Shown here one piece after another: positions 44,402 through 59,828 of a DNA stretch of 64,000 bases. A program made the position numbers and the translations under genes. The notes beneath the pieces are model-generated. The model made no database searches. It worked only from the letters and a program-made list of their open reading frames with translations, and had not been told where the DNA came from. Position 1 is the first letter of the stretch. Every line of letters begins with the position of its first letter. The DNA comes from a bacterium (lineage in GTDB: Bacteria > Patescibacteriota > Minisyncoccia > Phycocordibacterales > Phycocordibacteraceae), in contig JAJZRL010000004.1 of the NCBI GenBank assembly GCA_021802705.1, forward strand, positions 13,862 to 77,861, in the 5' to 3' direction.

Positions 44402-45178
44402 ATGCTAAGACATAAGGGTATGCCCACCAACCACCAGGATTCCTACGAAGCCACCGTCGAGCTCCTGCGCGAGTTCCCCCAATGGCGCGGGGTCATCGCG
44501 GCGGCGCTTGAAGAGGCTCAGACCATCACCACCGAGCGTTTCGCCGGGAAGTGGGTTCTCAACCGTGCCAAGAAGCACGGTGTTACTTGGGTGCCAAACC
44601 TCCGGAAACTCGTCTCTCACGGGATTCTCCAAAAGGAGGGCGAATCGACGCGGGGCGGCAGCCGCGCCTACTACTCCATGCCCGATCCGGCAGGAGTGGC
44701 ACGCGCGCTCCGTGACGTGAAGATTTCCTCGGTGAGCGAGCCGTATGCGGGTCACTTCGTAACGAAGGAGGGCGTCGCGCAGCGTGGCACCGTCTCCGTT
44801 CCATTTTATGCGACGCTCGCGTCGTGCGGAAGTCCGAATATGGCCGAAGCACACACCGACGAACACATGGATGTCGATGCACGTCTCATTAAGCCGAACC
44901 AGGAATATTTCCTTGTCCGCGCCGAAGGCGACTCAATGGATTTGGCGGGTATACGAAGCGGCGACCTACTCCTCGTGCGCTGTCAGGACTACGCCGACGT
45001 GGGACAAAAAGTCCTTGCGTGCATCGACGGTGGCGTGACCGTGAAGGAGTATCAACATACGGGCGAGTACGCGGTGCTCATACCGCGTTCCTCGAATCCG
45101 GCGAACAGGCCGGTCATCATGGCGGAAGACGCGCACATTCAAGGGGTCGTCGCGGCGGTAATTCCGGGCTTCACATAG
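44402..45178 (+). CDS. LexA/CI-like repressor with S24 peptidase domain
   Basis: C-terminal S24 autoproteolysis domain (GDSMDLAGIRSGDLLLV ... K in GQKVLACIDGGVTVKEY). Confidence 0.75.
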   Translation: MLRHKGMPTNHQDSYEATVELLREFPQWRGVIAAALEEAQTITTERFAGKWVLNRAKKHGVTWVPNLRKLVSHGILQKEGESTRGGSRAYYSMPDPAGVARALRDVKISSVSEPYAGHFVTKEGVAQRGTVSVPFYATLASCGSPNMAEAHTDEHMDVDARLIKPNQEYFLVRAEGDSMDLAGIRSGDLLLVRCQDYADVGQKVLACIDGGVTVKEYQHTGEYAVLIPRSSNPANRPVIMAEDAHIQGVVAAVIPGFT

Positions 45179-45185
45179 CATCACG

Positions 45186-45608
45186 ATGGACGCAAAACTC
45201 AAACATCTGGAATTCATTCAGGAGACCATCAAAAGGATGGCGGGGAATTCCTTTTTGCTGAGGGGGTGGAGCATCACGCTCGTGGTAGCCATCTTCACTA
45301 TCGCGAGTCAGACATACAAGCCCGTCTACCTATGGATCGCGCTTTTCGTAACCGGCGTGTTCTGGCTGCTCGATTCTTACTATCTCTTCCAGGAGAGACG
45401 GTTTCGTTGCCTCTACGACGAAGTGCGGGTTAAGGATCCATCCGCCATCGATTTCTCGATGGCTCTCCCAAAGAATCATTGCGATAAGTGCACGTGGCGG
45501 TCGTCCGCAAAATCTCCGATCTTCCTCGTGTTCTATGGCGTCGCGGCGGTGGTTCTGGTAGCGATATTACTAACGGTTTATCTCAACATATCCGTAACAC
45601 TTAAATAA
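45186..45608 (+). CDS. small 3-TM membrane protein (SLATT-like), putative effector
   Basis: N-terminal amphipathic helix then TM helices WSITLVVAIFTIA / VYLWIALFVTGVFWLL / IFLVFYGVAAVVLVAILL; immediately upstream of TIR gene. Confidence 0.5.
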   Translation: MDAKLKHLEFIQETIKRMAGNSFLLRGWSITLVVAIFTIASQTYKPVYLWIALFVTGVFWLLDSYYLFQERRFRCLYDEVRVKDPSAIDFSMALPKNHCDKCTWRSSAKSPIFLVFYGVAAVVLVAILLTVYLNISVTLK

Positions 45609-45610
45609 TT

Positions 45611-46216
45611 ATGACTAGGAAAATATTCTTCAGCTTCCATTACGAGCGCGACGCCTGGCGGGCTGGCCAGATTCGCAACAGCGATCTGCTCAGCCCCGAG
45701 GACAATGTCGGTTTCATCGATGCCGCCGCGTGGGAGGAGATTAAACGCAAAGGCGATGCCGCAGTAGAAAAATGGATAAACGAACAACTCGAAGGGACGT
45801 CGGTCACGGTTGTTCTCATCGGCGCAGAGACCTCACAGCGTCCCTGGGTCGATTATGAAATTCGTACGAGCTGGGAGCGCGGTAACGCGATAATCGGCCT
45901 CTACATACATAACGTTAAGGACAACGAACGCAAAACGGATATGCAGGGAGCGAATCCGCTCGACAACATCCTGCTTACCGACGGCCAACCGCTTTCTTCG
46001 GTCTGCAAGACATACGATTGGGTCAACGACGACGGTCGCAGTAATCTTGGCACCTGGGCAAACGAGGCGGCGAATGCGCGAGTGTCGTATAAAGGAGTGA
46101 CGACCCTTAAGGCTGGCACTCTGGATCGCCATGCGGCGACACCCTCGCTCCGCAAGTCCTATGCGACCACCGGCCCCACCGTTATCAACAATCCCTCCGG
46201 TCCTTGGGCGCAGTAG
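45611..46216 (+). CDS. TIR-like (DUF1863) protein, ThsB-like
   Basis: N-terminal KIFFSFHYERD, then VTVVLIGAETSQRPWVDYEI..ERGNAIIGLYIHNVKD and YDWVNDDG, matching the ThsB/DUF1863 pattern as I recall it. Confidence 0.7.
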   Translation: MTRKIFFSFHYERDAWRAGQIRNSDLLSPEDNVGFIDAAAWEEIKRKGDAAVEKWINEQLEGTSVTVVLIGAETSQRPWVDYEIRTSWERGNAIIGLYIHNVKDNERKTDMQGANPLDNILLTDGQPLSSVCKTYDWVNDDGRSNLGTWANEAANARVSYKGVTTLKAGTLDRHAATPSLRKSYATTGPTVINNPSGPWAQ

Positions 46217-46926
46217 GTATGGCTGCTGTGTTTTCCGATGAGGAAATCGCAGCGGTGAAGACTCGATATCCAGGCCTCGTCAGGGCAGGTCCGGACGTCG
46301 TTCAGGGGACGTTACGGATGGAGGCCGTCTACAACGGCGAGACCTTGAGCGGCGACTTTCAAATTCGTATCACTGCCACGAACCCGAATTCCGACGTTTT
46401 GCCTGCCCTCTACGAAACGGGTGGACGTACAGCGGCAATAGCCGCTGCGCACGGGATTACTGACTTACGAACGCTCCACCGCAACCGAGACGGAACTGCG
46501 TGCGTATGCGTAAAGCAGATTGAGCGGCGGAAATACCCGCCAGGATCCGATTTGTTGGTGTTCGTGGAAAATCTCGCGGTACCGTATTTGTATTGGCTGA
46601 CTTACTACGAACGATACGGGGAAGGTCCTTGGAAAGATTATGCTCACGGCGGTCTTGGCCTGCTGGAATTTTATTCTGAAGATACGGAGCCGCAAACCAC
46701 TGAAGGCATCAGAGAAATCCTCCCGACGCTTCGTAGAGAATTGAATTGGCAGGAGTATCATAAGCAGCTTAGAAAACCGAGTGGTGATAGGGCATGCTTG
46801 TGCGGCTCGGGCAAACCTTTTCGCACGTGCCACAAGAAGGCGTGGCAGGGAGTGGAGCGCCTTCATCGCGAGTTTCTCCGGCTCGGCATCAACCCTCGTT
46901 CGTTATTCGAGGGTATAAAAAAGTGA
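46204..46926 (+). CDS. hypothetical protein with C-terminal SEC-C metal-binding motif
   Basis: CLCGSGKPFRTCH; start overlaps TIR gene stop. Confidence 0.5.
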   Translation: MGAVGMAAVFSDEEIAAVKTRYPGLVRAGPDVVQGTLRMEAVYNGETLSGDFQIRITATNPNSDVLPALYETGGRTAAIAAAHGITDLRTLHRNRDGTACVCVKQIERRKYPPGSDLLVFVENLAVPYLYWLTYYERYGEGPWKDYAHGGLGLLEFYSEDTEPQTTEGIREILPTLRRELNWQEYHKQLRKPSGDRACLCGSGKPFRTCHKKAWQGVERLHREFLRLGINPRSLFEGIKK

Positions 46927-47073
46927 CATGCGCGTGTCCCGTTCTTATGTCACTTTTGTAACTCTGGTACGAGACCGACACGCCCTCGAAAATCGTCGGA
47001 ATCGCCGAAATGCCCTCGAATTCGCTCAAACCCTGCCGAGACCGACTGGCCTCGGACGGGAGTAGAGAAGCGC

Positions 47074-47230
47074 GCCGGAAACGCCCTTGGATACCTTACA
47101 TAGCGGGGTGCAAGACCGCTGCGGGCAACAAGGTAGTGCGGCCTGCAATGCAGACCGCCTGGCATCAAAAGTGCCGAAATTCAGTTCAAGACCGACACGG
47201 TCAAAACTCGCAAAAGGCGCTCGAAAGAGC
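47074..47230 (+). ncRNA. conserved junction element, copy C2, ending in terminator GCAAAAGGCGCTC-GAAA-GAGCGCCTTTTGC
   Basis: ~80% identical to 24111-24221 over ~95 nt; compensatory hairpin CTGCAATGCAG vs CTGCCATACAG. Confidence 0.45.
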
Positions 47231-47265
47231 GCCTTTTGCGTAGTCGGTAAAATTAAGCTAATTCG

Positions 47266-48720
47266 GTGTTTTTTGCTAGAATGGTCAGAATGGCAACGCT
47301 GAACTGGATTGGCAAAGAAGCCGTGGTAAACCACGACAAGGAGGTGCCTTTCAAGCTGCTCAAAAAGGTCCCATCCGCATCGGTCGGCAAGGAGTCGAAA
47401 AACCTCATCGTTCACGGGGATAACCTCGAAGCGCTCAAGGCGTTGATGCCTTTCTACAAGGGTAAAGTGAAATGTATTTACATTGATCCTCCCTATAATA
47501 CGGGAAACGAAAAATGGACTTATAACGATAAAGTGAATTCGCCAAAGATACGTGAATGGCTCGGGAAGGTTGTCGGAGGTGATGCAGAAGATCTGACGCG
47601 TCACGACAAGTGGCTCTGTATGATGTATCCGCGTCTCAAGTTGTTGAGAGAACTGTTAAGTGAGGACGGGGCTATTTACATGCAGTTGGACTACAACGAA
47701 GTTCATTACGGAAAGTTATTGATGGACGAAATTTTTGGTAGAGATAATTTCCAACGAGAAATCATTTGGAGAATTGGCTGGATTTCTGGTTTCAAATCGG
47801 CTGATGCAAATTGGGTTAGAAATCACGACACAATTCTTTTTTATTCTAAAAATGCCAAGAAACTTGAGTTCATAAAGCAGTACAACAAACCAGAAGAATA
47901 TCTCGAAAGGTTTAATGGTGAGACAACAAAAGCACTGGCTCAGTATTTTCAGGACCTTGGCCTAGACAAGAAAGCAACTGAGAAGGCCATAAAATATGCT
48001 GCAACAGTCGGATTGCCCGATAGATATCCCCTAGAGGATACTTGGAATGCAAGTGTTTACGACAAGCTGAACAGCATCGCCATCGTTTCCTTCTCAGGAG
48101 AGAAGGTCTCCAAGCTTTTAAACGTTGAAGAATTCAAGGGACAGAAGAGTATTGAATTGGTAAAGAGAATTATCAGGGCGCATACTAAAGAGGACGATAT
48201 TGTGCTCGATTCCTTTGCGGGAACTGGCAGTACGGGTCACGCCGTTTTGGATTTAAATAAAGAAGATGGGCAGCATAGAAAGTTTATTCTTGTGGAAATG
48301 GATGATCATGTAGCGGAAAAGATTACCTCCAAGAGGCTGAAAAAGAATATAGAGAAAAGTGGATATAAAGATAGCTTTGAATATTGTGACCTCGCCGAAC
48401 CACTCTTTGATGAGAAGGGGCAAATAAATGTGGAGTGTTCGTATGACGAGCTTGCGACCTATATCTACTTCACCGAGACCCAGACCAATCTCGAGAAAAA
48501 GACGATCAAGAAGCCGTTTATCGGCGAGAGTCACGGCACCTCGTACTACCTCATTTACGCCGGGAAGGATAAAAATGATCTCACGCGAGCGACCATCGAA
48601 AAGTTGAAATTAACTGGCCCAGCAGTAATCTACGCAGACCGATGTCTCGTGGACGAAGACGAGCTAGAAGAGAAGGGTATTGTCTTCAAGCAGATTCCAT
48701 ACGAGATCAAGGTTTACTAA
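47266..48720 (+). CDS. mod: type III R-M methyltransferase (Mod, N6-adenine)
   Basis: DPPYNTGNEKWTYNDK motif IV, C-terminal FAGTGSTGHA. Confidence 0.85.
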   Translation: MFFARMVRMATLNWIGKEAVVNHDKEVPFKLLKKVPSASVGKESKNLIVHGDNLEALKALMPFYKGKVKCIYIDPPYNTGNEKWTYNDKVNSPKIREWLGKVVGGDAEDLTRHDKWLCMMYPRLKLLRELLSEDGAIYMQLDYNEVHYGKLLMDEIFGRDNFQREIIWRIGWISGFKSADANWVRNHDTILFYSKNAKKLEFIKQYNKPEEYLERFNGETTKALAQYFQDLGLDKKATEKAIKYAATVGLPDRYPLEDTWNASVYDKLNSIAIVSFSGEKVSKLLNVEEFKGQKSIELVKRIIRAHTKEDDIVLDSFAGTGSTGHAVLDLNKEDGQHRKFILVEMDDHVAEKITSKRLKKNIEKSGYKDSFEYCDLAEPLFDEKGQINVECSYDELATYIYFTETQTNLEKKTIKKPFIGESHGTSYYLIYAGKDKNDLTRATIEKLKLTGPAVIYADRCLVDEDELEEKGIVFKQIPYEIKVY

Positions 48721-48724
48721 TCCT

Positions 48725-51001
48725 ATGCAATTCAAGCGCTATCAAACTGCTGCCCTAGAGACGCTCGACACCTTCTTGGGGAGCATCAAAAAGACGCCCT
48801 TGCGTCACGCTTTTCTCGACATAACGGACGAGAAGTACAACCAGGACTGGTTCGGTGAAGTCCCGTTCGTCTGTGTCCGCATACCAACCGGCGGAGGTAA
48901 GACTCTCGTGGCGTGTAAGTCAGTGGAACGGATCATGAGTACGATCCTCCAGTACAAGCTGGATACAGGAGTCGTCATGTGGTTCGTGCCGTCGGACTCG
49001 ATCAAGACGCAGACGCTCAAGAAGTTTAAGGACTCGCGGGACTGGCACAACGAAGTGCTGAACGAGTCTTTTGATGGGAAGGTAAAGGTTTTCTCGAATG
49101 AGGAAGCACTTACTATCACTCCTGAAGATGTGCGCAATAATCTCTGCATCATTGTGGCGAGTCTCGAGGCCTTCCGTAAGGAGGCATCCATCCAGAAGAA
49201 ATACAAAGTCTACAAGGAAAACGGCGCTCTGATGGATCACTTCTTGAATCTCAAAGACACCAAAGATCTTGAGAAGGACTCGGAAGGTGAAGTGATTAAT
49301 TCGCTCGCAAACGTCATCCGCAAGAACAACCCACTCATCGTTATCGATGAAGGCCACCACACACAGACCGAGCTTTCTGTGCAGTTCCTCTCCGACCTCA
49401 AACCGTCTTTCATTATCGAGTTCACGGCTACGCCGCGTGATGGCAGTAACGTGCTCGTGCGCATCAGTGCTTCCGAACTCAAGAATGAGCAGATGGTGAA
49501 GATTCCTATCGTGCTTGAGAGCCGTTCGCAGTGGGAGCAGGTAGTGGCAGACGGCTTGGTCAAACGAGAGGAGCTCGAGAAGCGGGCCAAGAAACTCGCC
49601 AAGGAATATATACGCCCGATTGCACTCCTTCAGGCACAGCCGAAGAGCAAGGTCCGTACCACGGTTACCGTCGAAGACCTCAAACAGATGCTTCTTGCTC
49701 GCAAGATTCCGGAGAGCCAGATCAAGATAAAGACCTCTGATGTCGATGAACTTGAGGGAATAGATCTCTTTGATAAGAAGTGCGAGGTCCGCTATATCTT
49801 GACCGTCAACGCTCTCGCAGAGGGGTGGGACTGCTCATTTGCATATGTGCTTATCTCAGTTGCAAACCTTGGAGCAAAAGTAGCCGTTGAACAGATCATC
49901 GGCCGCGTTATTCGCATGCCGAATGCAAAGAGGAAAACTGACGATGCTCTCAACCGCAGCTATGTGTTTGCCTCGGCAGCCAACTTCAATGAAGCCGCTT
50001 CTAGAATTATCGGCGGCCTCGAGGACAACGGCTACAGCCGGTCCGACTTCGTGGGAGTTGCTGAAGAGAAGGAGTATTCTGATCCTCTTGAAGCGAAGAA
50101 GGCAATCAAGAAAGATTTGAAAGTCCCGATGATGGCTATCGGGAAGCAGAAGCTCTCATTTGAGGATTTGCTCGGAGAGGATTTTGAGCTTGCGAAGCAG
50201 AACCCCGACTGCGACTTCAAGATCCATTATGACCTCGATGGGCAGGCGACTATCGACATCTCAGAAGACGAAGAGTGGCTTCAGGGGAAACAGCTAGCGC
50301 TCTCGTTCCAGTACCTCGATGGGAATCATTCTGTAGATGAGTTGGTGACGTGGCTTGATAAGAAGCTCCGTTTCCCGATGCTGAGTCCGGAGGATAAAAT
50401 CGCCTTTCTCGAGAGGGCCGTGCAGTCGCAGATAAAGAAGAATAAGCGGACGCTTCCGGAGTTGTCCGTTAACCGGTATCTTCTTGCAGAACGCCTGAAC
50501 CTTCTTATCACTGAACGACTCGAAACCTATACGAAGAAAGCATATAAGGATCTTCTTGCAAAGAAGAAGTTGGTCGTCGCGCCTTTTGATTCATACCCCG
50601 CGACTATTGCCCTCAAATCTCCGGTACCGAAGGTCTTCAATAAGAACCTCTATGAGCGTATCGACTCAATTAACGGTGAAGAGCGCGGGTTTGTGGAACG
50701 CATCGATCTTGGTGCTTTGGACAATATTGAGTTCTGGGTTCGCAACCGAGAAAAGGTAGACCCGTTTTATATCCAGGGATGGAAGAAAGGAAAGTTCTAT
50801 CCAGACTTTGTCGCCGTGACGAAGAAGGGAAATATCGTTGCGCTTGAATGGAAAGGGGAGGACCGGATCAGCAACGAGGATACTTCTTACAAAGTCGAGA
50901 TTGCAAAAGAATGGGAGAAACTGGGCAAAGGTAAGACGCATTTCTTCCTTGTGCATAACGGGAAAGTCGACGAAGTCCTTGCCGGAATCAAGGCACTCTA
51001 G
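48725..51001 (+). CDS. res: type III restriction enzyme Res subunit (helicase-nuclease)
   Basis: SF2 helicase motif I IPTGGGKT, DEGHH motif II, immediately downstream of mod. Confidence 0.85.
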   Translation: MQFKRYQTAALETLDTFLGSIKKTPLRHAFLDITDEKYNQDWFGEVPFVCVRIPTGGGKTLVACKSVERIMSTILQYKLDTGVVMWFVPSDSIKTQTLKKFKDSRDWHNEVLNESFDGKVKVFSNEEALTITPEDVRNNLCIIVASLEAFRKEASIQKKYKVYKENGALMDHFLNLKDTKDLEKDSEGEVINSLANVIRKNNPLIVIDEGHHTQTELSVQFLSDLKPSFIIEFTATPRDGSNVLVRISASELKNEQMVKIPIVLESRSQWEQVVADGLVKREELEKRAKKLAKEYIRPIALLQAQPKSKVRTTVTVEDLKQMLLARKIPESQIKIKTSDVDELEGIDLFDKKCEVRYILTVNALAEGWDCSFAYVLISVANLGAKVAVEQIIGRVIRMPNAKRKTDDALNRSYVFASAANFNEAASRIIGGLEDNGYSRSDFVGVAEEKEYSDPLEAKKAIKKDLKVPMMAIGKQKLSFEDLLGEDFELAKQNPDCDFKIHYDLDGQATIDISEDEEWLQGKQLALSFQYLDGNHSVDELVTWLDKKLRFPMLSPEDKIAFLERAVQSQIKKNKRTLPELSVNRYLLAERLNLLITERLETYTKKAYKDLLAKKKLVVAPFDSYPATIALKSPVPKVFNKNLYERIDSINGEERGFVERIDLGALDNIEFWVRNREKVDPFYIQGWKKGKFYPDFVAVTKKGNIVALEWKGEDRISNEDTSYKVEIAKEWEKLGKGKTHFFLVHNGKVDEVLAGIKAL

Positions 51002-52353
51002 CCCACTGACTCGAGGGAAATTTTTCTATCTTTCATCACGATCTTGCCGCGCATGTATTCGAGCAGGTCGCGCTTTTCCTGCACGGTTCCGTTCTGGAGT
51101 AGGTACTTCGCATAGCGTCGCACATCCATTTCTTTTGCCTTGAGCCGCTCTCCTGGATGCTGTGTGGCCGCTTGTAACTTGTTGTATCGCGAAACCTCCG
51201 CCTCAATGACTCTCCGCGCCCCGATCTCATCCAGCTCGACTTGGTCCATTATCGCCGCCAGCTGTTCGATAAGATGATCCTCGCGGATATAAGGGTTCTC
51301 GCAGGGATTGCCCTTGGATTTCGTACAGGTGTAGTAGATGTAGGAACGCTCTGAGCCGTCAGATTTGATGATCTTCTTTTTCTCTACACCCGTGATGCCG
51401 GAGCCGCATTCGCCACAGATCATGATCTTGGTGAAGGTGAATGAGTGCCGTGTATGTTTCGGTTTGTGGTCTTCGGCGAGCTTCTCTTGCACGAGCTGGT
51501 ATAACTCGCGTGTGATAAGCGGTGTGTGTTTGCCGGTATACCAGTTGCCGCTACCACGTGGGTATTCGTACACGCCGCAGTAGAAGGGATTCTTCAGTGT
51601 CGTGTATACCAGACTTACCGGTAGATGTTTATTGCTCCTCGTCCTGAAATCGATTTCTTTTAGCCATGCGTATATCTTGCGTCCGCTCCATCGTTCGTAT
51701 GCCGCCTTTTCGAACATCTGCTTCACGATAGGGGAGCGGACGGAGTCGACGAGCATTTCACACTTGTGATCGCGTCGTTTGTCATTTAGGTATCCGAGCG
51801 GAGCGACTCCAGGCAAGAGTCCCATCTCGGCTCGGGTCTTCAGGCCGCGCTTCACGTTGATGCGCTTGTTGTCGTTCTCAAGCTTTGCTTGGCTCCCCAG
51901 AATCATGAGAAGGAATTTCTCATTCGGGTTATTCGAGAACTTTTGATTGTATGTCCGTATCTCGCGCAGAAGTCCTGCGTCCATGAGGTCTATAACTTTC
52001 CCGAGATCGCCCGCGTTACGCGCGATGCGATCTGGCGCCCAAGTGAGCAGGCCATCGAACTTACCGATCCGTATCTCGTCGATGATTTGGTTGTACACCG
52101 GCCGTTGGCCAGTCTCTTTTGCAGAGTGCGATTCGCGTTTAATCTCGACCACGTTTATGCCGTCGCGCCTGGCGAGCTCGGTCATTTCCTTGATCTGACT
52201 GTCGATCGATAGCGCTTGAACCTCATCTTGCTCGGTTGATTTGCGGGCGTATAGACAGTACCGGATCGGGTGTATCACCTCGACGACCGGCATGCTTCCC
52301 ATTTCTCTCGCTAAAGTGGCTTCCATTTCCTTGTATTTACTGGCTAATGGCAC
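50998..52353 (-). CDS. large serine recombinase (paralog of 30579..31904)
   Basis: YARKSTEQD, CGECGSGITG; ~85% identical to the first copy by eye. Confidence 0.9.
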   Translation of the reverse strand: MPLASKYKEMEATLAREMGSMPVVEVIHPIRYCLYARKSTEQDEVQALSIDSQIKEMTELARRDGINVVEIKRESHSAKETGQRPVYNQIIDEIRIGKFDGLLTWAPDRIARNAGDLGKVIDLMDAGLLREIRTYNQKFSNNPNEKFLLMILGSQAKLENDNKRINVKRGLKTRAEMGLLPGVAPLGYLNDKRRDHKCEMLVDSVRSPIVKQMFEKAAYERWSGRKIYAWLKEIDFRTRSNKHLPVSLVYTTLKNPFYCGVYEYPRGSGNWYTGKHTPLITRELYQLVQEKLAEDHKPKHTRHSFTFTKIMICGECGSGITGVEKKKIIKSDGSERSYIYYTCTKSKGNPCENPYIREDHLIEQLAAIMDQVELDEIGARRVIEAEVSRYNKLQAATQHPGERLKAKEMDVRRYAKYLLQNGTVQEKRDLLEYMRGKIVMKDRKISLESVG

Positions 52354-52400
52354 GAGTACAAGGAATGACGCAACCGTCCCGGGTAGTCCAGACTAGCGTC
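52320..52400. other. att-like site: CCTTGTA-N-TACAAGG palindrome followed by AATGACGCAAC-N14-GTCCAGAC
   Basis: same architecture as 31905-31990. Confidence 0.5.
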
Positions 52401-52412
52401 CGATAGGCGTAG

Positions 52413-53531: not shown

Positions 53532-53561
53532 TTGCGCAAACAAGCGGGTTACTATTAGGTC

Positions 53562-54284: not shown

Positions 54285-54296
54285 AGGTGAACAGGC

Positions 54297-54560
54297 AAGC
54301 CCCTTCGCAAAGCCCTAATACTAAGTTAGGGTCGTGGGCAGGCTCAATTTGAGTTATTATGTTCTTGTAAACCGAATAAAGAGGCCTAAACCGGCTTGAG
54401 AATCCTTGATTCTCCCGGCATGGCCGCAAATCGCGACCAGCGTACTGAACCCGTCATCGGGAGCGCTGGTCGCGTTACAGGGGGAAACTCTTGTAGGGCC
54501 TTCGGGCCCACCCGGTGGCGGGTTCAGTGCGTCTCTCCATCGGGCATTACAAATCGCGAC
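54297..54560 (+). ncRNA. candidate structured RNA (5' leader motif, copy B)
   Basis: see copy A. Confidence 0.55.
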
Positions 54561-54570
54561 CAGCAAATAT

Positions 54571-55042: not shown

Positions 55043-55495
55043 TCACGGTGCCGCTTCGTTCCATGGGTCTGTCAGTGAGCCTAGTCTCCTGTCTCGCTTG
55101 ATGTGATTTTCTCGTGTCGTCTCTTCGTTTGCGTGTTGGTATTCACGTGGATCGACCACTCGAATCTGCACGGTCTGGACAGGCGGTGCTTCCTTGATAT
55201 ACGGAGCGGGCTTGCGCGGTCGGTAGTAGCGCTTTGAGTTCGCTTCGAGAATCAGTTTGATCGCACCGAAGTGTTCCTTGTCGGCCATCTTCACGAGTTT
55301 GCTCTCGGCATGGTCGACCAGCGTGTCCCGCCCGCGTTTCAGCGAACGATCGTACTTCTTTTTGAAGTCAGGGTCGTCCTCGAGCCAGCGATAGATGGTC
55401 GCTTTGCTGATACCGGCACGCTTGCACACCACCGATACGATCGGCAGGTTCTCGAGTTCATCGAGAAATTTCTGTTTATCATCAGGCGGCACCAT
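55043..55495 (-). CDS. HTH DNA-binding protein, putative terminase small subunit
   Basis: VCKRAGISKATIYRWLEDDPDF; paralog of 41165..41614. Confidence 0.5.
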   Translation of the reverse strand: MVPPDDKQKFLDELENLPIVSVVCKRAGISKATIYRWLEDDPDFKKKYDRSLKRGRDTLVDHAESKLVKMADKEHFGAIKLILEANSKRYYRPRKPAPYIKEAPPVQTVQIRVVDPREYQHANEETTRENHIKRDRRLGSLTDPWNEAAP

Positions 55496-56882
55496 GGATC
55501 TTAACGGCCTTCTTCCCAGTCTCCATTTCCCAACGCCGTTTTATGACTTCAGCGTACACGGGACTCTTCTCCATGAGATAGCAACGGCGATGCATCTTGA
55601 TGGATGCGATGAGAGTCGATCCGCTCCCGCCGAATGGCTCAACGATAAGGTCGTCACGCTTCGTGAGCACCTTCACATACGGGATGAGGATCTCGAGCGG
55701 CTTGGTGCCGAAAATGATGCCTTGTCCTGAGGACTGAAGGTCGGCCGCTTTGTACTCGATGAAGTCGGTCGGCTGGATCTTCTTTCCTTTTTCATATCCC
55801 TCCCAGTGTGGCTTACCCGAGATAGCGTAGAGCGCCGTTTCGTACTCGTTATCGAGGAGTTCGCCTTCGCTATCAAGGTTGAGATGCTCGGCATCATCCT
55901 GCGACGAGCCGACCACCGCGATGTCGTGCTTGCTGAACAGCTTGTACTTCCCGGCGTATCCCTGATTGCGGTTTGGCAGATGCCACACAATCATGTTCTT
56001 CACCTTCCAGTATTTCTCCATCTCGCCCCAGATGGTGCGGATGTTCTTCCAGTTCTCATACACGACGATGTGGAAGTCCGGTTTCGCAATTTTCGACACA
56101 TTGCCCATCCAGAGTTCAGTGAAGTTATCGGGCAGTGAATCGGTCTCGAGATAACGGCGGTCACGCTTCGCACCGAAGCCGGTCACGGCCTCGCCATTCT
56201 TTTTCTTCTTGCCGTGAAGATAGTCGAGGATGTATGGAGGATCGGTGAAGCACATATCAGCACGAGCATCGCCCATAAGGGTGAGCATGTCGGCCTCGAC
56301 GGTCGAGTCGCCACACATCATCCTCGACCCGTCGATTTCATAGATATCGCCCTTTTGCACTTTGATCTCGGTGATATCAAGCTTCTCGAGTTCCTTCTCG
56401 AGGTCGAATTTCTCAGGATTATCCTCGGCAGGGAATATGTCATCGAGGTCTTCGCTTGAGAAGCCGACCTCGGTGAGGAGGGAAGCATCGAATTCCTTGA
56501 GGAGCTCGAAGTCCCATTCACCGACCGCCTTGTTCAAGCGAAGACAGAGGTCGCGTTCTTTCTCGATATCGGGAATCGCGAGATACACAACGGGTACTTC
56601 TTCGTGGCCCATGTCCTTCAGCACTTCATACCGAAGGTTGCCGCCGATGATAATGCCTTCGCGCCCGGGCGCATTGTTCACGAGGATTGGATCGGCTACG
56701 CCATGGCGTTCGATGCTCTCGCGCACAGGAAGTTTCGTTTCGTCGTTAAGAACTCGTGGGTTGTACTCCGCGTGGCGGAGGGAAGTAATGGGCACATATA
56801 CGATATTGAGTTTGTTTTCCATAGATGTTGTTTTTAATTGGTAACGAAAACGCCCGAACAAGCGCTCGTGTCGATGACACAA
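55482..56882 (-). CDS. ParB-like nuclease domain fused to DNA methyltransferase
   Basis: N-terminal ParB box, C-terminal IVEPFGGSGSTL. Confidence 0.8.
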   Translation of the reverse strand: MCHRHERLFGRFRYQLKTTSMENKLNIVYVPITSLRHAEYNPRVLNDETKLPVRESIERHGVADPILVNNAPGREGIIIGGNLRYEVLKDMGHEEVPVVYLAIPDIEKERDLCLRLNKAVGEWDFELLKEFDASLLTEVGFSSEDLDDIFPAEDNPEKFDLEKELEKLDITEIKVQKGDIYEIDGSRMMCGDSTVEADMLTLMGDARADMCFTDPPYILDYLHGKKKKNGEAVTGFGAKRDRRYLETDSLPDNFTELWMGNVSKIAKPDFHIVVYENWKNIRTIWGEMEKYWKVKNMIVWHLPNRNQGYAGKYKLFSKHDIAVVGSSQDDAEHLNLDSEGELLDNEYETALYAISGKPHWEGYEKGKKIQPTDFIEYKAADLQSSGQGIIFGTKPLEILIPYVKVLTKRDDLIVEPFGGSGSTLIASIKMHRRCYLMEKSPVYAEVIKRRWEMETGKKAVKIHGAA

Positions 56883-56920
56883 ACGTTTGTTCGGGCGTTC
56901 CGAACTTGCTCGATTGCTCG

Positions 56921-57172
56921 CTAGGCGAGAGAGACGCTAAGCGCGTCGTTCACACCTGTCGATTCCTTGATGTTGAGAAAGATCGCTCCGAAACCGCACT
57001 CTTCGCACACGACTTTTGCTTGATCGCCGTATTCGATTCGCGTCTTCACTGGCCGACCCCGATAGAACTTGATTAGCTCGAGCTCTTGTCGTCCCGACCG
57101 CCTAGCGATAGGTGTATCGCAGAAGCAGTACACCAAATCGCCCACGTCAGCGAATTGATCGGCGCGTTTCAT
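56921..57172 (-). CDS. hypothetical protein
   Basis: ORF only. Confidence 0.3.
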   Translation of the reverse strand: MKRADQFADVGDLVYCFCDTPIARRSGRQELELIKFYRGRPVKTRIEYGDQAKVVCEECGFGAIFLNIKESTGVNDALSVSLA

Positions 57173-57372
57173 TTCTGGTTGCGAAGCGCCTTGAGCACTC
57201 CGTCGAGGGAAGGGGTATCGAACTTCTCCTTGAGGGTGCCGAGCTTCGTATTGCCGTTCACATGATTGAACTCGGGGTAGTCCTTGCGAAGGTTTTTCGC
57301 GAGAGCGTCCGAGCGTTCCTCACGGTAGCGGCCGTCTTGATTGCGACTGCGGGTTCCTTTTGGTACTGGCAT
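57169..57372 (-). CDS. small conserved hypothetical protein (paralog of 44135..44329)
   Basis: shared motif KDYPEF-N-NGN-LGTLK. Confidence 0.5.
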   Translation of the reverse strand: MPVPKGTRSRNQDGRYREERSDALAKNLRKDYPEFNHVNGNTKLGTLKEKFDTPSLDGVLKALRNQK

Positions 57373-57415
57373 AGCGGGGTAGGGGTTAGGGTCGGATAAT
57401 GTCGACCTACTATCA

Positions 57416-58162
57416 GTGTATTCTCGCTATGCACAGTGTCAAGTATTAGGGACTTGCAGACCTTACCGATTCCATGGTATACATCATGTAATGCACCCAA
57501 TTCAAGAACAACTTCTAGCGCTTTCACGTAGGAAAAACCTAGCTGAAATGAGCCTTCGTGAGATGGCCCAGGAAATCGGCGCGACTGATGCATCTCCTCA
57601 GAAAATTAAGCACCATTTGATGCAATTGCAGAAGAAGGGATTCATCATTATTGATCGCCCTCGCGGCGTCATGAAGGCCGGGGCAGAAAAGCCCGCATGG
57701 GCGAAGGGGTTCATGGAAAAGGCAAAGACACTGCTCCGTATTCCAGTCATCGGCACTGCGAACTGCGGTCCCGCCACCATTTATGCAGAAGAGAACTATC
57801 AGGGCTTTCTCCGTGTATCAAGCAGGCTCGCCGGAGTGCGATCTCCCGAAGGGATTTATGCAATCAAGGCTGATGGATCGTCCATGAATCGTGCCGATGT
57901 CGATGGTCGCAAAATTGAGGACGGTGACTATGTCATCGTAGATTCTAAAATTGCCGAGCCGAAGAACAATGACATCGTCGTTGCAATCATTGACGGGAAG
58001 GCGACGATCAAGCGTTTCATCCGCGATGACGCGAACGAACAGATCGTTCTCAAGGCCGATTCTTCAAATGACTATGAGCCGATCTATCTCCACGCTAATG
58101 ATGATTTCACGATAAGCGGAAGAGTGATCAGTGTCGTGAAGAAACCAACGCGCGTAAATTAA
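57416..58162 (+). CDS. LexA/CI-like repressor with HTH and S24 peptidase domain
   Basis: N-terminal wHTH (LREMAQEIGATDASPQKIKHHLMQLQKKG), C-terminal S24 domain (IKADGSSM ... K in DGKATIKRF); true start may be an internal Met. Confidence 0.7.
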   Translation: MYSRYAQCQVLGTCRPYRFHGIHHVMHPIQEQLLALSRRKNLAEMSLREMAQEIGATDASPQKIKHHLMQLQKKGFIIIDRPRGVMKAGAEKPAWAKGFMEKAKTLLRIPVIGTANCGPATIYAEENYQGFLRVSSRLAGVRSPEGIYAIKADGSSMNRADVDGRKIEDGDYVIVDSKIAEPKNNDIVVAIIDGKATIKRFIRDDANEQIVLKADSSNDYEPIYLHANDDFTISGRVISVVKKPTRVN

Positions 58163-58163
58163 T

Positions 58164-59060
58164 ATGTCCTGGGAAGATACATTTCGCACATGGGGAGCTG
58201 CTCCGAGCGCAACGGAACAACAAAAGATGGAAAACGCTGAGACGGCAATTCGCAAGGCTATTAAATCGAATGATCGGCTAGCTGCTATGGATATCACGAT
58301 TGTCTCTCAAGGTTCTTATCGCTCGAAAACAAATGTGCGTCTCGATAGTGATGTTGATATTGCGGTTCGTCTCAACTCGACGTTCTTCGCCCGGTATCCT
58401 GAAGGCAAAAACCGTGAAGATTATGGAAATGTGGAAGGGAGTATTTCCTTCAGAGAGTTCAGGAATCTTGTTCACATCGCTCTCGGGGACTACTTTAATT
58501 TTGCGAATGTCACGCCAGGGAATAAGGCTTTCGATATCCATTCAAATTCTTATCGCGTGGACGCAGATGTAGTTCCCGCGTTTGCGTATCGTTCCTATTA
58601 CGGCAATGGTTTCGATGACTACAGTGAACCGACCGGTACCGCTTTTCTCTATGGCGGCGAAGGTCACCGTATCGTGAATTGGCCGGTGCAAACTTATGAG
58701 AACGGAAAAGATAAACATGATCGCACTGGCCAGCGACATCGCAAGATAGTGCGTATATTGAAGCGTTTGCGAAATAAGATGCAGGACGAGAAAATAGCCG
58801 CCGCGAATGACATCGCCTCTTTTCTGATCGAGAGCATGGTGTGGAATGCTCCCGACGGGCATTTTGGGAACATAGACTACAAAGACGATGTCCGCGCCGT
58901 TCTCGCGTACTGCTTCAATGAGACGCTTCTTGCGGGGAGCCATCCAAAGCTTCGAGAGGTTAATGATCGGAAACTCCTCTTCGGTTCTCATCAGTCATGG
59001 ACACGAGAGCGAGCGCACGATTTCTTCTCAGCAGCTTGGGATTACATCGGATTCAAATAG
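58164..59060 (+). CDS. SMODS/CD-NTase-like nucleotidyltransferase
   Basis: pol-beta NTase signature GSYRSKTNVRLDSDVDIAV plus downstream RVDADVV third acidic residue; ~300 aa with helical C-domain. Confidence 0.65.
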   Translation: MSWEDTFRTWGAAPSATEQQKMENAETAIRKAIKSNDRLAAMDITIVSQGSYRSKTNVRLDSDVDIAVRLNSTFFARYPEGKNREDYGNVEGSISFREFRNLVHIALGDYFNFANVTPGNKAFDIHSNSYRVDADVVPAFAYRSYYGNGFDDYSEPTGTAFLYGGEGHRIVNWPVQTYENGKDKHDRTGQRHRKIVRILKRLRNKMQDEKIAAANDIASFLIESMVWNAPDGHFGNIDYKDDVRAVLAYCFNETLLAGSHPKLREVNDRKLLFGSHQSWTRERAHDFFSAAWDYIGFK

Positions 59061-59062
59061 CC

Positions 59063-59683
59063 ATGGAAAAAGTTAATCATACCGTCGCGCTCTATGCCCA
59101 GTTCATTACGTTCTTGGTTATTTGGTTCGCGTCGATGATTGTCTCTGGGCTAGTCGCGCCGATGGATTTTATTAGCGCGCTCAAGCTCATCCCGACCGCC
59201 ATATCTGTCTATGCTTTCGTTGCTTTGATTTTCACGAAGTGGGTTTGGCGCTGGCCGATTTTTCAGGGGTGGTTGATTAAGGTTCCGGACTTGCGCGGAA
59301 CGTGGCGTGGCGAATTGAAGAGCGATTGGATCGATCCGAAAACAGGTCAATCGATCGATCCAATCCCCGTCGTTCTGTTAATTCGTCAGAGCTTTTCGAA
59401 CATAAATATCACTCTCATGACGAAAGAGTCGACCAGCTACAGTACCACCGCCAGCATAAATGCCGCAGTTAATGGTGAGGATCTCTATCTGACCTATAAC
59501 TACACGAATCGCCCGAAGGCGTCCCTTTGGGACAGGAGTGCTATTCATGACGGTGCAGCTATCCTGAAAATTATCAAGCGGCCGAATCGCCGCCTAGAGG
59601 GTGAGTACTGGACCGGTCGCAAGACGCGAGGTGATCTTTCACTTCAGTTCGATTCTAAAGTTTTGGCAGAGAGCTTTTCATAG
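59063..59683 (+). CDS. 2-TM membrane protein with beta-rich C-terminal domain (Cap15/SLATT-like putative effector)
   Basis: TM helices ALYAQFITFLVIWFASMIVSGL / LIPTAISVYAFVALIF; 3 nt after NTase stop. Confidence 0.55.
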   Translation: MEKVNHTVALYAQFITFLVIWFASMIVSGLVAPMDFISALKLIPTAISVYAFVALIFTKWVWRWPIFQGWLIKVPDLRGTWRGELKSDWIDPKTGQSIDPIPVVLLIRQSFSNINITLMTKESTSYSTTASINAAVNGEDLYLTYNYTNRPKASLWDRSAIHDGAAILKIIKRPNRRLEGEYWTGRKTRGDLSLQFDSKVLAESFS

Positions 59684-59828
59684 GGGGTGTGTCTCATTTG
59701 TCTCATTTTGGTTCAAGACCGATACGCTCCTAAAACGCATTGAAAGTACCGAAGCACGCCCGATCTGCCTCAAAGCCGGATGAGACCGTTAGGCCTAATT
59801 CTAGGAGATAGAAGGGGGCGGGGAAGGT

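What the first reader, a model, noticed from the sequence alone, without database searches (positions are those of the whole stretch)
44402..59683. Two paralogous phage-like modules carry different defence cargo in the same slot downstream of their repressors
Module A (38.8-47.2 kb) and module B (54.3-59.7 kb) share a gene order: structured-RNA-like leader, membrane-anchored protein (+), then on the minus strand an HTH/TerS-like gene, a ParB-fused DNA methyltransferase, a hypothetical gene and a small conserved 64-67-aa protein, then on the plus strand a LexA/CI-like S24 repressor. Only A retains a terminase large subunit and an extra methyltransferase. Directly after the repressor, A carries the ThsB-like TIR locus and B carries the SMODS/2TM pair. 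The flanks are homologous but the cargo is different, which suggests a cargo-exchange hotspot analogous to defence hotspots described in P2/P4-like prophages and satellites. Both modules lack recognisable capsid, portal and tail genes, so they may be satellites or decayed prophages that are now mainly defence carriers.
Basis: partly seen in the sequence, partly recalled or inferred. Interest (0 to 1): 0.6.

Follow-up and report, generated by a model that had tools for sequence, protein, structure and literature searches.

The report
Defence-gene swap slot behind mobile-element repressors
Two distantly related, virus-like mobile elements sit one after the other beside a tRNA gene, and each carries a different anti-virus system in the same slot just after its repressor gene; relatives from other samples keep the same flanks but hold other defence systems, so the slot is a real exchange hotspot of a kind already known from other elements.

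Summary
Both modules share the order LOOT RNA (Rfam RF03000), membrane-anchored Sie-like protein, then on the minus strand TerS-like gene, ParB-methyltransferase, an unrelated small ORF and a 64/67-aa protein (58% identical), then on the plus strand an S24 LexA/UmuD-type repressor. They are distant homologues (28-58% aa), not recent paralogues.

Each is the core of one of two elements inserted in tandem after tRNA-Met (24.1-61.6 kb). Each element has its own large serine recombinase.

The cargo starts 1-7 nt after the repressor stop codon:
- A: a 3-TM protein, a ThsB TIR protein (PADLOC PDC-M50) and an orphan E2-like gene.
- B: type I CBASS (CD-NTase and Cap15).

The cargo ends at a conserved att-proximal arm.

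The decisive evidence comes from environmental relatives. One contig has a repressor 99% identical to B's, a left flank 94% and a right flank 84% identical in DNA, yet it carries PDC-M50/ThsB instead of CBASS. Other relatives of both repressor lineages carry type III CBASS, SAVED-CBASS, SMODS+SLATT or PDC-M48.

No virion structural genes were found, so a satellite or mobilisable island is the likeliest element type. The concept is known (P2/P4 hotspots, lambda cI-rexAB); the element family is undescribed.

The parts
24040..24111 (+). tRNA-Met (CAT), the chromosomal anchor of the whole insertion
   Evidence: ARAGORN; Rfam
24095..24221 (+). R1: the tRNA 3' end plus about 110 nt. It recurs as a direct repeat at R2 and R3 and contains AGACCGACACG at 24171.
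   Evidence: self-BLAST; alignment; motif
30579..31904 (-). Large serine recombinase of element A (Resolvase + Recombinase + Zn_ribbon_recom)
   Evidence: Pfam; 88% aa identical to the B copy
38871..38988 (+). LOOT RNA (RF03000), 58 nt upstream of the Sie-like gene of A
   Evidence: Rfam 79.7 bits against a gathering score of 46.4
39046..39612 (+). N-terminally membrane-anchored, superinfection-exclusion-like protein of A
   Evidence: PHROGs Sie-like 1.5e-8; TM segment at residues 11-35
39724..41196 (-). Terminase large subunit, present only in A
   Evidence: phrog_38 8.6e-74; at most 27.5% identity to known phage TerL
41165..41614 (-). TerS-like HTH protein of A
   Evidence: PHROGs terminase small subunit 2e-12; 34% identical to the B copy
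41611..42384 (-). Extra N6/N4 DNA methyltransferase, present only in A
   Evidence: Pfam 8.7e-29
42344..43618 (-). ParB_N-fused DNA methyltransferase of A
   Evidence: Pfam; 32% over 442 aa to the B copy
44135..44329 (-). 64-aa basic protein, first gene of the operon divergent from the repressor (A)
   Evidence: 58% identical to the B copy; family of 61 clusters
44420..45178 (+). S24 LexA/UmuD-type self-cleaving repressor of A. It has a Cys-Gly site and a Ser/Lys dyad aligned to UmuD.
   Evidence: Pfam 2.5e-21; UmuD alignment; start taken from gene calls in L014
45186..45608 (+). Cargo A, gene 1: PDC-M50A, about 140 aa, predicted membrane protein (2 hydrophobic segments detected here; 3 in L098/L111 homologues)
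   Evidence: PADLOC 2.7e-45; hydropathy
45611..46216 (+). Cargo A, gene 2: ThsB-type TIR protein (PDC-M50B)
   Evidence: Pfam ThsB_TIR 1.8e-26; PADLOC 1.8e-64
46219..46926 (+). Cargo A, gene 3: orphan CBASS-type E2-like protein, with no cyclase beside it
   Evidence: PADLOC E2 3e-30; 29-33% identical to the third gene of the SAVED-cyclase operons in L106 and L117
46927..47138 (.). Right arm of A: a hairpin, AGACCGACACG at 46972, and a degenerate tRNA-3'-like stretch (47025-47138) that is homologous to B's right arm
47125..47239 (+). R2: junction repeat between elements A and B, 88% identical to R1
47266..51001 (+). Type III restriction-modification pair (mod 47266-48720, res 48680-51001), lying between R2 and the B recombinase
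   Evidence: Pfam
50998..52353 (-). Large serine recombinase of element B
   Evidence: Pfam
54383..54509 (+). LOOT RNA of B
   Evidence: Rfam 68.7 bits
54569..55042 (+). Sie-like protein of B (WWFW hydrophobic N-terminus; no TM segment at the hydropathy threshold used). The 157-aa start is taken from independent gene calls.
   Evidence: PHROGs; L109 gene call; N-terminal sequence, no TM segment scored
55043..55495 (-). TerS-like protein of B
   Evidence: Pfam Sf6_terminase 3.4e-7; PHROGs
55482..56882 (-). ParB_N-fused DNA methyltransferase of B. Gene callers start it at 56822.
   Evidence: Pfam
57169..57372 (-). 67-aa basic protein of B
57373..57490 (.). Divergent switch region of B, with the palindrome CAAGTATTAGGGACTTG at 57440-57456. 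The palindrome is conserved in B-type relatives and is a candidate operator that overlaps a -35-like TTGACA on the minus strand.
   Evidence: one match in the window, 0.02 expected
57491..58162 (+). S24 LexA-type repressor of B (wHTH LexA_DNA_bind plus S24). The start MHPIQEQLL is conserved in relatives.
   Evidence: Pfam
58164..59060 (+). Cargo B, gene 1: CD-NTase
   Evidence: PADLOC cyclase 4.4e-111
59063..59683 (+). Cargo B, gene 2: Cap15 2-TM effector
   Evidence: Pfam Cap15_CD_rec 6.8e-22; PADLOC 8.5e-75; start from L109
59684..59707 (.). Right boundary motif of the slot, GGGGGTGTGTCTCATTTGTCTCATT. It is conserved directly after the last cargo stop codon in B, L111 and L098 even though their cargo differs.
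59708..59882 (.). Right arm of B: AGACCGATACG at 59716 and a degenerate tRNA-3'-like stretch, 73% identical to A's
61508..61615 (+). R3: the last copy of the junction repeat. Chromosomal genes follow it, starting with an LD-carboxypeptidase at 61667.

Best explanation
**What it is.** The 24.1-61.6 kb stretch is an insertion downstream of tRNA-Met. It is built from two related integrative elements placed head to tail, plus a short remnant.

**Shared backbone of each element:**
- a large serine recombinase;
- a LOOT RNA ahead of a membrane-anchored, superinfection-exclusion-like gene;
- a minus-strand operon: small basic protein, small ORF, ParB-methyltransferase, TerS-like gene, with or without TerL;
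- a divergently transcribed S24 LexA/UmuD-type repressor that can cleave itself.

**The slot.** The defence cassette begins 1-7 nt after the repressor stop codon and ends at a conserved att-proximal arm. The slot is therefore the last position of the element, between the immunity gene and the attachment site.

**Shown here.**
- The boundaries are sharp.
- Closely related elements hold unrelated cassettes between near-identical flanks.
- Every cassette seen is a defence system or a candidate one.

**Inferred.**
- The cassette is co-transcribed with the repressor while the element is resident, as lambda rexAB is with cI. The host is then protected from other phages whenever the element is quiescent.
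- DNA damage (RecA*) makes the repressor cleave itself and turns on the divergent packaging and methylation operon.
- Cassettes turn over by homologous recombination between the conserved repressor gene and the att arm of co-resident relatives.
- With TerS (and sometimes TerL) but no virion genes, the elements are most likely helper-dependent satellites or mobilisable islands.
For: **Backbone homology and LOOT RNA.**. LOOT and the same architecture also occur in L098, L019 and L108.

**Tandem insertion.**
- tRNA-Met at 24040-24111.
- Its 3' end plus downstream sequence is repeated at 47125-47239 and 61508-61615, 86-88% identical.
- The 11-mer AGACCGAYACG matches exactly only at 24171, 46972, 47189 and 59716.
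- Chromosomal genes lie on both sides.

**Tight gene spacing, no predicted terminator.** S24 stop 45178 and cargo start 45186; S24 stop 58162 and cargo start 58164.

**Same flanks, different cargo.**
- L111 against B: S24 99% identical, left flank 94.2% over 1305 nt, right flank 84.3% over 115 nt, PDC-M50A/ThsB in place of CBASS.
- L098/L010: 84.4% DNA identity up to 7 nt past the S24 stop, then only the 24-nt motif is shared.

**Cargo diversity.**

**Repressor chemistry.** The S24 Ser/Lys dyad and the Cys-Gly site align to UmuD and LexA structures.

**No structural genes.**

**Independent assemblies.** L014, L015, L016, L109 and L110.
Against: - Co-transcription, SOS induction, excision and packaging are all inferred. 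Nothing was measured.
- Promoter and terminator scans give no signal above chance.
- I could not define att sites for a serine recombinase. There are no inverted half-sites between the recombinase-proximal end and the right end, and 100-nt direct repeats are unusual for serine integrases.
- The left part of the array may be mis-assembled or recombinant. The window matches L013 up to about 31750 and L012 from about 31780, and L012 has MFS and deacetylase genes next to the same recombinase.
- No relative was found in IMG/VR viral contigs, and no replication gene or helper phage was identified, so satellite status is unproven.
- S24-then-defence pairs also occur without this backbone (L105, L106, L117, L063).
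Confidence: 0.75

Rival explanations
1. The S24 repressor and the defence genes form a self-contained, DNA-damage-regulated defence cassette, analogous to CapH/CapP-controlled CBASS. The cassette moves as a unit and merely happens to sit in these elements. On this view there is no element-specific hotspot.
For: - S24-then-defence pairs occur outside the backbone. In L105 the pair lies between Dcm-Vsr-EcoRII and an ABC-3C system.
- In L106 the pair sits between the recombinase and an HTH gene.
- L117 shows the same pairing, and L063 has S24, then the small gene, then CBASS.
- The B-type repressor belongs to a family of more than 3000 LexA-like proteins at about 62-67% identity.
Against: - The regulator stays with the flanks, not with the cargo. 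B and L111 share a 99% identical S24 but carry unrelated cargo.
- L098's S24 is 89% identical to B's, yet its cargo resembles A's, and A's own S24 is only 28% identical.
- DNA homology stops within a few nucleotides of the S24 stop codon.
Confidence: 0.15
2. The two modules are decaying prophage remnants. The shared order is inherited phage synteny, the cargo differences are incidental insertions into dead DNA, and no functional element or selected hotspot exists.
For: - There are no capsid, portal or tail genes.
- TerL is present in A only.
- An IS256-family transposase lies inside A at 35801-36934.
- An orphan E2-like gene is present.
Against: - The same compact architecture, without structural genes, recurs in diverged relatives with intact ORFs: L098, L108, and L019 with TerL.
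- The recombinases are intact in both elements.
- Cargo replacement has sharp, reused boundaries, and every cassette is a complete defence operon.
Confidence: 0.15
3. The picture of the same flank with different cargo, and the tandem array itself, are artefacts of metagenome assembly across repeated sequences.
For: - The window switches from L013-like to L012-like sequence inside the recombinase gene near 31750-31800.
- L111 is only 2.3 kb long.
Against: - There is no shared sequence at L111's left cargo junction for an assembler to cross.
- L111's cargo is not a copy of L098's: 69% and 85% aa identity.
- The L098-type arrangement occurs on at least 10 contigs from different samples.
- B's and A's cargo and flanks are each reproduced at 99.97-100% identity on independent contigs.
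Confidence: 0.05

Closest known systems
Defence hotspots of P2-like prophages and P4-like satellites (Rousset et al. 2022, PMC9122126)
   Same: - Conserved flanking genes in a family of integrated phage-like elements.
- Between them lie highly variable cassettes that are nearly all anti-phage systems.
- The exchange is seen between close relatives.
   Different: - The element family is unrelated: serine recombinase, LexA-type repressor, ParB-methyltransferase, TerS and LOOT RNA, with no P2 or P4 genes.
- The slot is the last position of the element, directly after the repressor gene and beside the att arm.
- The hosts are uncultured bacteria known only from metagenomes.
Lambda cI-rexA-rexB (immunity operon carrying an exclusion system); from general knowledge
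   Same: Defence genes lie immediately downstream of, and are presumably co-transcribed with, a self-cleaving S24-family repressor. That repressor faces a divergent early operon.
   Different: - Lambda is a complete phage.
- Here the content of the slot is interchangeable (CBASS, TIR systems, PDC-M48).
- Co-transcription was not shown here.
Phage-inducible chromosomal islands (SaPI/PICI), including their defence cargo; from general knowledge and PMC10085698
   Same: - Size of about 10-17 kb.
- Integrated, with a master repressor divergent from an operon that ends in a TerS gene.
- No virion genes, and accessory defence cargo near an end.
   Different: - No primase or replicase module and no capsid-remodelling genes were found.
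- The integrase is a large serine recombinase.
- The repressor is of the LexA/S24 type, so it is predicted to respond to SOS directly rather than to a helper anti-repressor.
- Element A also has TerL.
CapH/CapP- and CapW/BrxR-regulated CBASS and BREX operons; from general knowledge
   Same: A DNA-damage-responsive repressor is encoded next to CBASS, so defence expression may be tied to genotoxic stress.
   Different: - The regulator here is a single-chain S24 LexA-like protein encoded upstream on the same strand.
- It stays with the mobile-element flank while the defence genes change.
Thoeris systems with membrane effectors (types V-XI; bioRxiv 10.64898/2025.12.03.692087) and the PADLOC candidate PDC-M50
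   Same: Cargo A pairs a ThsB-type TIR protein with a small 3-TM protein, the layout described for TIR-signal and membrane-effector Thoeris types.
   Different: - The TM protein does not reach the Pfam threshold for DUF2270 (ThsF); E = 0.08-1.3.
- It matches PDC-M50A, which is a prediction that has not been tested.

Membership tests
Defence hotspot in a mobile-element family (sense of Rousset et al. 2022) | Conserved flanks on both sides of the slot in related elements | tested here: met
   - B against L111: left flank 94.2% over 1305 nt, right flank 84.3% over 115 nt.
- A against B: right arm 73% over 115 nt.
Defence hotspot in a mobile-element family (sense of Rousset et al. 2022) | Unrelated gene content between those flanks in close relatives | tested here: met
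   - CBASS (B) against PDC-M50/ThsB (L111, L098).
- Further cassettes in L086, L105, L106, L107, L108 and L117.
Defence hotspot in a mobile-element family (sense of Rousset et al. 2022) | Content dominated by anti-phage systems | tested here: met
   All cassettes examined match PADLOC defence or candidate-defence models, except for a few small ORFs. No formal enrichment statistic was computed.
Type I CBASS (cargo B) | CD-NTase plus one effector, with no Cap2/Cap3 or HORMA/TRIP13 genes | tested here: met
   - Cyclase 4.4e-111 and 2TM effector 8.5e-75.
- Cap15_CD_rec 6.8e-22.
- The next ORFs have no defence hits.
Thoeris type I/II (cargo A) | ThsB TIR together with a ThsA (SIR2-SLOG or Macro) effector | tested here: not met
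   ThsB is present. No SIR2, SLOG or Macro protein is adjacent; the neighbours are a 3-TM protein and an E2-like protein.
Thoeris type V (ThsB + ThsF/DUF2270) | Effector belongs to PF10028 (DUF2270) | tested here: not met
   DUF2270 gives E = 0.079-1.3 at 9-13 bits against a cut-off of 25, and only for the two homologues from L098 and L111. The window protein gives no hit.
PADLOC candidate system PDC-M50 | Adjacent PDC-M50A and PDC-M50B genes | tested here: met
   M50A 2.7e-45 and M50B 3.5e-61, on adjacent genes. Defence activity was not tested.
LexA/UmuD/CI S24 self-cleaving repressors | S24 domain with a Ser-Lys dyad and an Ala/Cys-Gly cleavage site | tested here: met
   - Pfam 2.5e-21 and 5.2e-23.
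- A's CG, GDSM and VTVK align with UmuD Cys24-Gly25, Ser60 and the Lys97 position.
- B has the matching GSSM and TIKR, and an NCGP motif from the translation only.
- Cleavage itself cannot be tested here.
LexA/UmuD/CI S24 self-cleaving repressors | N-terminal DNA-binding domain | tested here: inconclusive
   - B: LexA_DNA_bind 4.9e-6.
- A: only a PadR-like hint at E = 0.14.
PICI/SaPI-type phage satellite | Integrase, divergent master repressor, primase-replicase module, TerS or capsid-redirecting genes, no virion genes | tested here: inconclusive
   An integrase (serine type), a divergent repressor, TerS and the absence of virion genes are all found. No primase or replicase was detected by Pfam or PHROGs.
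PICI/SaPI-type phage satellite | Induction and packaging by a helper phage | not testable with these tools
   No helper phage was identified, and there are no relatives in IMG/VR.
P4-like satellite | Psu, Delta, Sid, alpha primase, P4 integrase | tested here: not met
   None of these families is hit in any ORF of 24-61.6 kb.
Intact temperate prophage | Portal, capsid, tail and lysis modules | tested here: not met
   Only TerL and TerS were found. The remaining ORFs give no structural hits.
LOOT RNA (Rfam RF03000) | Score above Rfam's gathering threshold over the full model | tested here: met
   79.7 and 68.7 bits against 46.4, covering model positions 1-121.

The most novel reading that the evidence does not exclude
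These are members of an undescribed family of phage satellites, or satellite-like islands, of uncultured bacteria (possibly Patescibacteria). A LexA-type self-cleaving repressor wires the host SOS signal both to element induction and to a plug-in defence operon. More broadly, LexA-like S24 repressors would be a widespread and unrecognised class of DNA-damage-responsive regulators placed directly upstream of CBASS, TIR and PDC-M48 systems. LOOT RNA would be a dedicated regulatory part of the same elements, controlling a second interchangeable slot for superinfection-exclusion membrane proteins.
Probability: 0.3. Interest if true: 0.7.

Novelty: new variant of a known kind. Interest (0 to 1): 0.5.

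Why it matters
- It gives a clean natural example of defence-cassette replacement with base-level boundaries. Near-identical flanks hold CBASS in one sample and a TIR system in another.
- The elements and hosts lie outside the well-studied enterobacterial P2/P4 and PICI models.
- The slot can be used as a discovery tool. Anything found between an A- or B-type S24 stop codon and the att arm is a candidate defence system. L107, L117 and L098 already hold unannotated ORFs there.
- It shows how tandem accretion of such elements at one tRNA builds a 37-kb defence island. That island holds two restriction-modification systems, CBASS, a TIR system, and PIN and DUF6119 genes.
- It gives LOOT RNA, a motif of unknown function, a concrete genomic context.

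Tried and rejected
**Searches that found nothing useful.**
- IMG/VR scans with both repressors and with the small-protein profile found no relatives.
- The small protein has no match in GenBank phages.
- The literature and the supplements of the paper I took from memory to be the motif's source (Weinberg et al. 2017) gave nothing usable on LOOT.

**Small protein.** The AlphaFold model has pLDDT 68 and three short helices. Foldseek against the PDB gave no match with E below 5. Its role as a Cro-like or early regulator therefore rests only on its position.

**Serine-integrase att sites.**
- I looked for half-sites as inverted or direct matches between the recombinase-proximal ends and the right ends. 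None were found.
- I first read 24.2-30.5 kb (metal ATPase, DsbA) as cargo of element A.
- L012 then showed the same element next to other genes, and the window changes parent inside the recombinase gene. That assignment is now uncertain.

**Regulatory signals.**
- Sigma-70 promoter and terminator scans of both slots are at chance level.
- Generic repeat search in the switch regions found nothing.
- A conserved palindrome emerged only when B-type relatives were compared.

**Other ideas set aside.**
- Type V Thoeris membership of cargo A was rejected on the DUF2270 score.
- I considered that the small protein defines the element. That was rejected: most of its 61 clusters and 246 metagenome hits lie in other contexts.

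Full report
**1. What is in the window**

ORF listing and Pfam, PHROGs, PADLOC and Rfam searches confirm the two modules almost exactly as described.

Module A, in order:
- LOOT RNA (RF03000, 38871-38988, 79.7 bits);
- an N-terminally anchored Sie-like protein (39046-39612);
- on the minus strand, TerL (39724-41196, phrog_38 8.6e-74), a TerS-like HTH protein (41165-41614), a methyltransferase (41611-42384), a ParB_N-methyltransferase (42344-43618), a 117-aa ORF and a 64-aa protein (44135-44329);
- on the plus strand, an S24 repressor (44420-45178).

Module B repeats this order at 54383-58162, without TerL and without the extra methyltransferase.

Pairwise similarity is modest:

| Pair | Similarity |
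|---|---|
| Sie-like N-terminus | 43% over 56 aa |
| TerS-like | 34% |
| ParB-methyltransferase | 32% over 442 aa |
| Small protein | 56-58% |
| S24 repressors | 28%, S24 domain only (E = 6e-6) |
| 117-aa and 83-aa ORFs | not detectably related |

G+C also differs, 0.59 for the A backbone against 0.53 for B. A and B are therefore diverged members of one element family, not duplicates.

**2. The cargo**

- In A the repressor stop codon (45178) is followed after 7 nt by PDC-M50A, a roughly 140-aa predicted membrane protein with two to three hydrophobic segments. A ThsB-type TIR protein follows (Pfam 1.8e-26, PADLOC 1.8e-64), then a CBASS-type E2-like protein with no cyclase nearby.
- In B the stop codon (58162) is followed after 1 nt by a CD-NTase (4.4e-111) and then Cap15 (Pfam 6.8e-22). 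Together these form a type I CBASS.
- Both repressors keep the S24 Ser/Lys dyad. A's Cys-Gly aligns with the UmuD Cys24-Gly25 cleavage site; B has an NCGP motif at the expected place, read from the translation, not from that alignment. RecA*-stimulated self-cleavage is thus plausible but untested.

**3. The setting: a tandem array at tRNA-Met**

- A tRNA-Met gene lies at 24040-24111.
- Its last bases plus about 110 nt downstream recur at 47125-47239 and 61508-61615, 86-88% identical.
- Left of the middle copy is a degenerate tRNA-3'-like stretch (47025-47138). It is 73% identical to 59769-59882, directly after B's cargo.
- The 11-mer AGACCGAYACG matches exactly at only four places in 64 kb. 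All four are in these junction regions: 24171, 46972, 47189 and 59716.
- Housekeeping genes flank the whole block. LigA and GatA lie upstream; an LD-carboxypeptidase, DUF3977 and an S51 peptidase lie downstream.
- Each unit carries a large serine recombinase (30579-31904 and 50998-52353, 88% aa identical).

So the finding's two modules are the cores of two elements integrated head to tail. The cargo slot is the last position of each element, between the repressor gene and the att-proximal arm.

Two other regions also differ between the units:
- Between the junction repeat and the recombinase: a metal-resistance cluster in one unit, a type III restriction-modification pair in the other.
- Between the recombinase and LOOT: DUF6119, a MamI restriction-modification pair, an IS256-family transposase and DUF2779 in one unit; a PIN_12 protein and a hypothetical ORF in the other.

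**4. The decisive test: relatives**

The 64/67-aa protein and the two repressors were used as anchors, and contigs were fetched.

*B-type flanks.*
- L111 encodes a small protein identical to B's and a repressor 99% identical. It matches B at 94.2% over 1305 nt up to the last codons of the repressor, and again at 84.3% over the 115 nt after the cargo. Between these flanks it has PDC-M50A and ThsB instead of CD-NTase and Cap15.
- L010, L098 and L099, and at least seven further contigs, carry a B-type backbone: TerS 85%, ParB-methyltransferase 92%, small protein 92.5% and S24 89% identical. The DNA is 84.4% identical from 55039 to 58169, which is 7 nt past the stop codon. They again carry PDC-M50/ThsB. 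After the cargo only a 24-nt motif (GGGGGTGTGTCTCATTTGTCTCATT, window 59684-59707) is shared.
- L086 (S24 64%) has a type III CBASS with cyclase, TRIP13 and a TIR effector.
- L105 (S24 65%) has PDC-M48B and a TM protein, inside a chromosomal defence island.

*A-type repressor relatives.*
- L106 (74%): HNH-SAVED, cyclase and an E2-like gene.
- L107 (72%): a 69-aa ORF, PDC-M48B and a TM protein.
- L108 (57%): DUF2188/PDC-S16, SMODS and SLATT, on a full backbone with recombinase, LOOT, Imm_superinfect, TerS and ParB-methyltransferase.
- L117 (57%): a 69-aa ORF, SAVED, then 299-aa and 223-aa ORFs.

A's orphan E2-like gene is 29-33% identical to the third gene of the L106 and L117 operons. This is consistent with a partial replacement of an earlier SAVED-CBASS cassette, but that is an inference.

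*What the comparison shows.*
- The left boundary is the 3' end of the repressor gene. The right boundary is the motif at the start of the att arm.
- The regulator stays with the flanks while the cargo changes.
- Every cassette examined is a defence system or a candidate one.

**5. What kind of element**

- No capsid, portal, tail, lysis or replication gene was found between 24 and 61.6 kb.
- The same compact layout recurs in diverged relatives. L019 has TerS and TerL followed directly by the Sie-like gene and LOOT. L098 and L108 lack TerL.
- In L020 and L001 an HTH and ImmA-type pair replaces the S24 repressor.
- TerL of A is at most 27.5% identical to any GenBank phage terminase, and nothing related occurs in IMG/VR.
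- I read this as a family of helper-dependent satellites or mobilisable islands rather than random prophage debris. There is no direct evidence for mobility or packaging.

**6. Mechanism, and its status**

*Shown:* the anatomy, the sharp slot boundaries, the flank-identical and cargo-different relatives, the defence identity of the cassettes, and the intact catalytic motifs of the repressors.

*Inferred:*
- The cassette is co-transcribed with the repressor. The gaps are 1-7 nt and no terminator is predicted, although the scans are uninformative.
- The host is protected while the element is resident, as with lambda cI-rexAB.
- An SOS signal cleaves the repressor and derepresses the divergent operon.
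- Cassettes are exchanged by homologous recombination between the repressor gene and the att arm.

A palindrome, CAAGT-N7-ACTTG (57440-57456), is unique in the window and conserved in B-type switch regions. It overlaps a -35-like hexamer of the divergent promoter and is a candidate operator.

**7. Caveats**

- The window's recombinase A region is identical to contig L013 up to about 31750 and to contig L012 from about 31780. In L012 the same element is followed by MFS and polysaccharide-deacetylase genes, not by the metal cluster. The left end of the array may therefore be collapsed, chimeric or naturally recombinant.
- This does not touch the finding itself. A's and B's slots and flanks are reproduced on independent contigs.
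- The integration chemistry is unresolved. Long direct repeats are atypical for serine integrases, and I found no half-site symmetry.
- The host is unknown. Related loci come from MAGs labelled Patescibacteria, Bacteroidota or unclassified.

**8. Comparison with what is known, and verdict**

- In concept this matches the defence hotspots of P2/P4 elements (PMC9122126).
- In position it matches lambda cI-rexAB.
- In outline the element resembles PICIs, but it fails or leaves open their defining replication and helper criteria.

It is a well-supported new variant of a known phenomenon. It sits in an undescribed element family and comes with unusually clean comparative evidence. Interest is moderate.

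Noticed in passing
window 24040-24221, 47025-47239, 59769-59882, 61508-61615: The whole 24.1-61.6 kb block lies between tRNA-Met and chromosomal genes. It is punctuated by 86-88% identical copies of the tRNA 3' end plus about 100 nt, and by degenerate tRNA-3'-like stretches. The 11-mer AGACCGAYACG occurs exactly only in these junctions. This looks like tandem site-specific integration, but the only recombinases present are serine-type.
   Followed up: partly
window 38871-38988 and 54383-54509; L098 5952-6076; L108 7040-7152; L019 11211-11337: LOOT RNA (RF03000) is a conserved part of this element family. In all five copies checked it lies 54-60 nt upstream of a membrane or secreted-protein gene. 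The family of that gene changes from element to element: Sie-like, TM2+SHOCT, Imm_superinfect, or a peptidoglycan-binding protein. LOOT may therefore lead a second interchangeable slot.
   Followed up: partly
window 30553-31970: The recombinase A region is identical to contig L013 up to about 31750 and to contig L012 from about 31780. L012 has MFS and polysaccharide-deacetylase genes, not the PAP2/metal cluster, starting 26 nt after the recombinase stop codon. The window contig may be chimeric or collapsed here, or it may be a natural recombinant.
   Followed up: partly
window 24239-30535, 31886-38772, 47266-51001, 52413-54284: Two further variable regions separate the shared backbone parts.
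- Between the junction repeat and the recombinase 3' end: a metal ATPase/DsbA/DUF2127/PAP2 cluster in one unit, a type III restriction-modification pair in the other.
- Between the recombinase 5' end and LOOT: DUF6119, a MamI restriction-modification pair, an IS256-family transposase and DUF2779 in one unit; PIN_12 and a hypothetical ORF in the other. In L098 a copper/cation efflux cluster sits there.
   Followed up: partly
window 46219-46926: An E2-like (CBASS Cap2-type) gene stands without any cyclase in element A. It is 29-33% identical to the third gene of the SAVED-cyclase operons that follow A-type repressors in L106 and L117. It may be a relic of a replaced CBASS cassette, or it may act on the cyclase of element B 12 kb away.
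   Followed up: partly
window 44135-44329 and 57169-57372; loci L043, L063, L093, L094, L030: The 64-67-aa basic protein family is rare (61 clusters) and occurs in many unrelated contexts. It is often directly upstream of defence genes: type III restriction-modification in L043, three ThsB genes in L094, CBASS in L063, PDC-M48B in L093. It has no Pfam or PHROGs match and no structural match.
   Followed up: partly
window 57491-58162; L105 6001-6669: The B-type repressor is 62-67% identical to each of the best 120 listed members of a family of more than 3000 LexA-like proteins, some labelled Patescibacteria. In L105, a 1.76-Mb contig, one of them sits between Dcm-Vsr-EcoRII and PDC-M48B, next to an ABC-3C system. 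I did not determine whether these are host LexA genes or defence-island regulators.
   Followed up: no
window 56849-56899: A 51-nt near-perfect palindrome (AACGCCCGAACAA...TTGTTCGGGCGTT) lies between the 83-aa ORF and the ParB-methyltransferase gene of B. It is conserved in L098, L099 and L109-L113. Its function is unknown; a terminator or attenuator, or a ParB or packaging site, are possibilities.
   Followed up: no
window 3180-5081, 5344-7731, 25173-27308: There are three paralogous heavy-metal P-type ATPase genes. The copy at 25173-27308 is 58% aa identical to the one at 3180-5081.
   Followed up: no
window 59780-61412: Two ORFs (236 and 208 aa) between B's right arm and the last junction repeat have no Pfam, PHROGs or PADLOC match. 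They look like a third, minimal segment of the array.
   Followed up: no
L117 7127-8593: A 488-aa protein fuses LexA_DNA_bind, Peptidase_S24 and an N6/N4 DNA methyltransferase. It lies near an A-type repressor and its CBASS locus.
   Followed up: no
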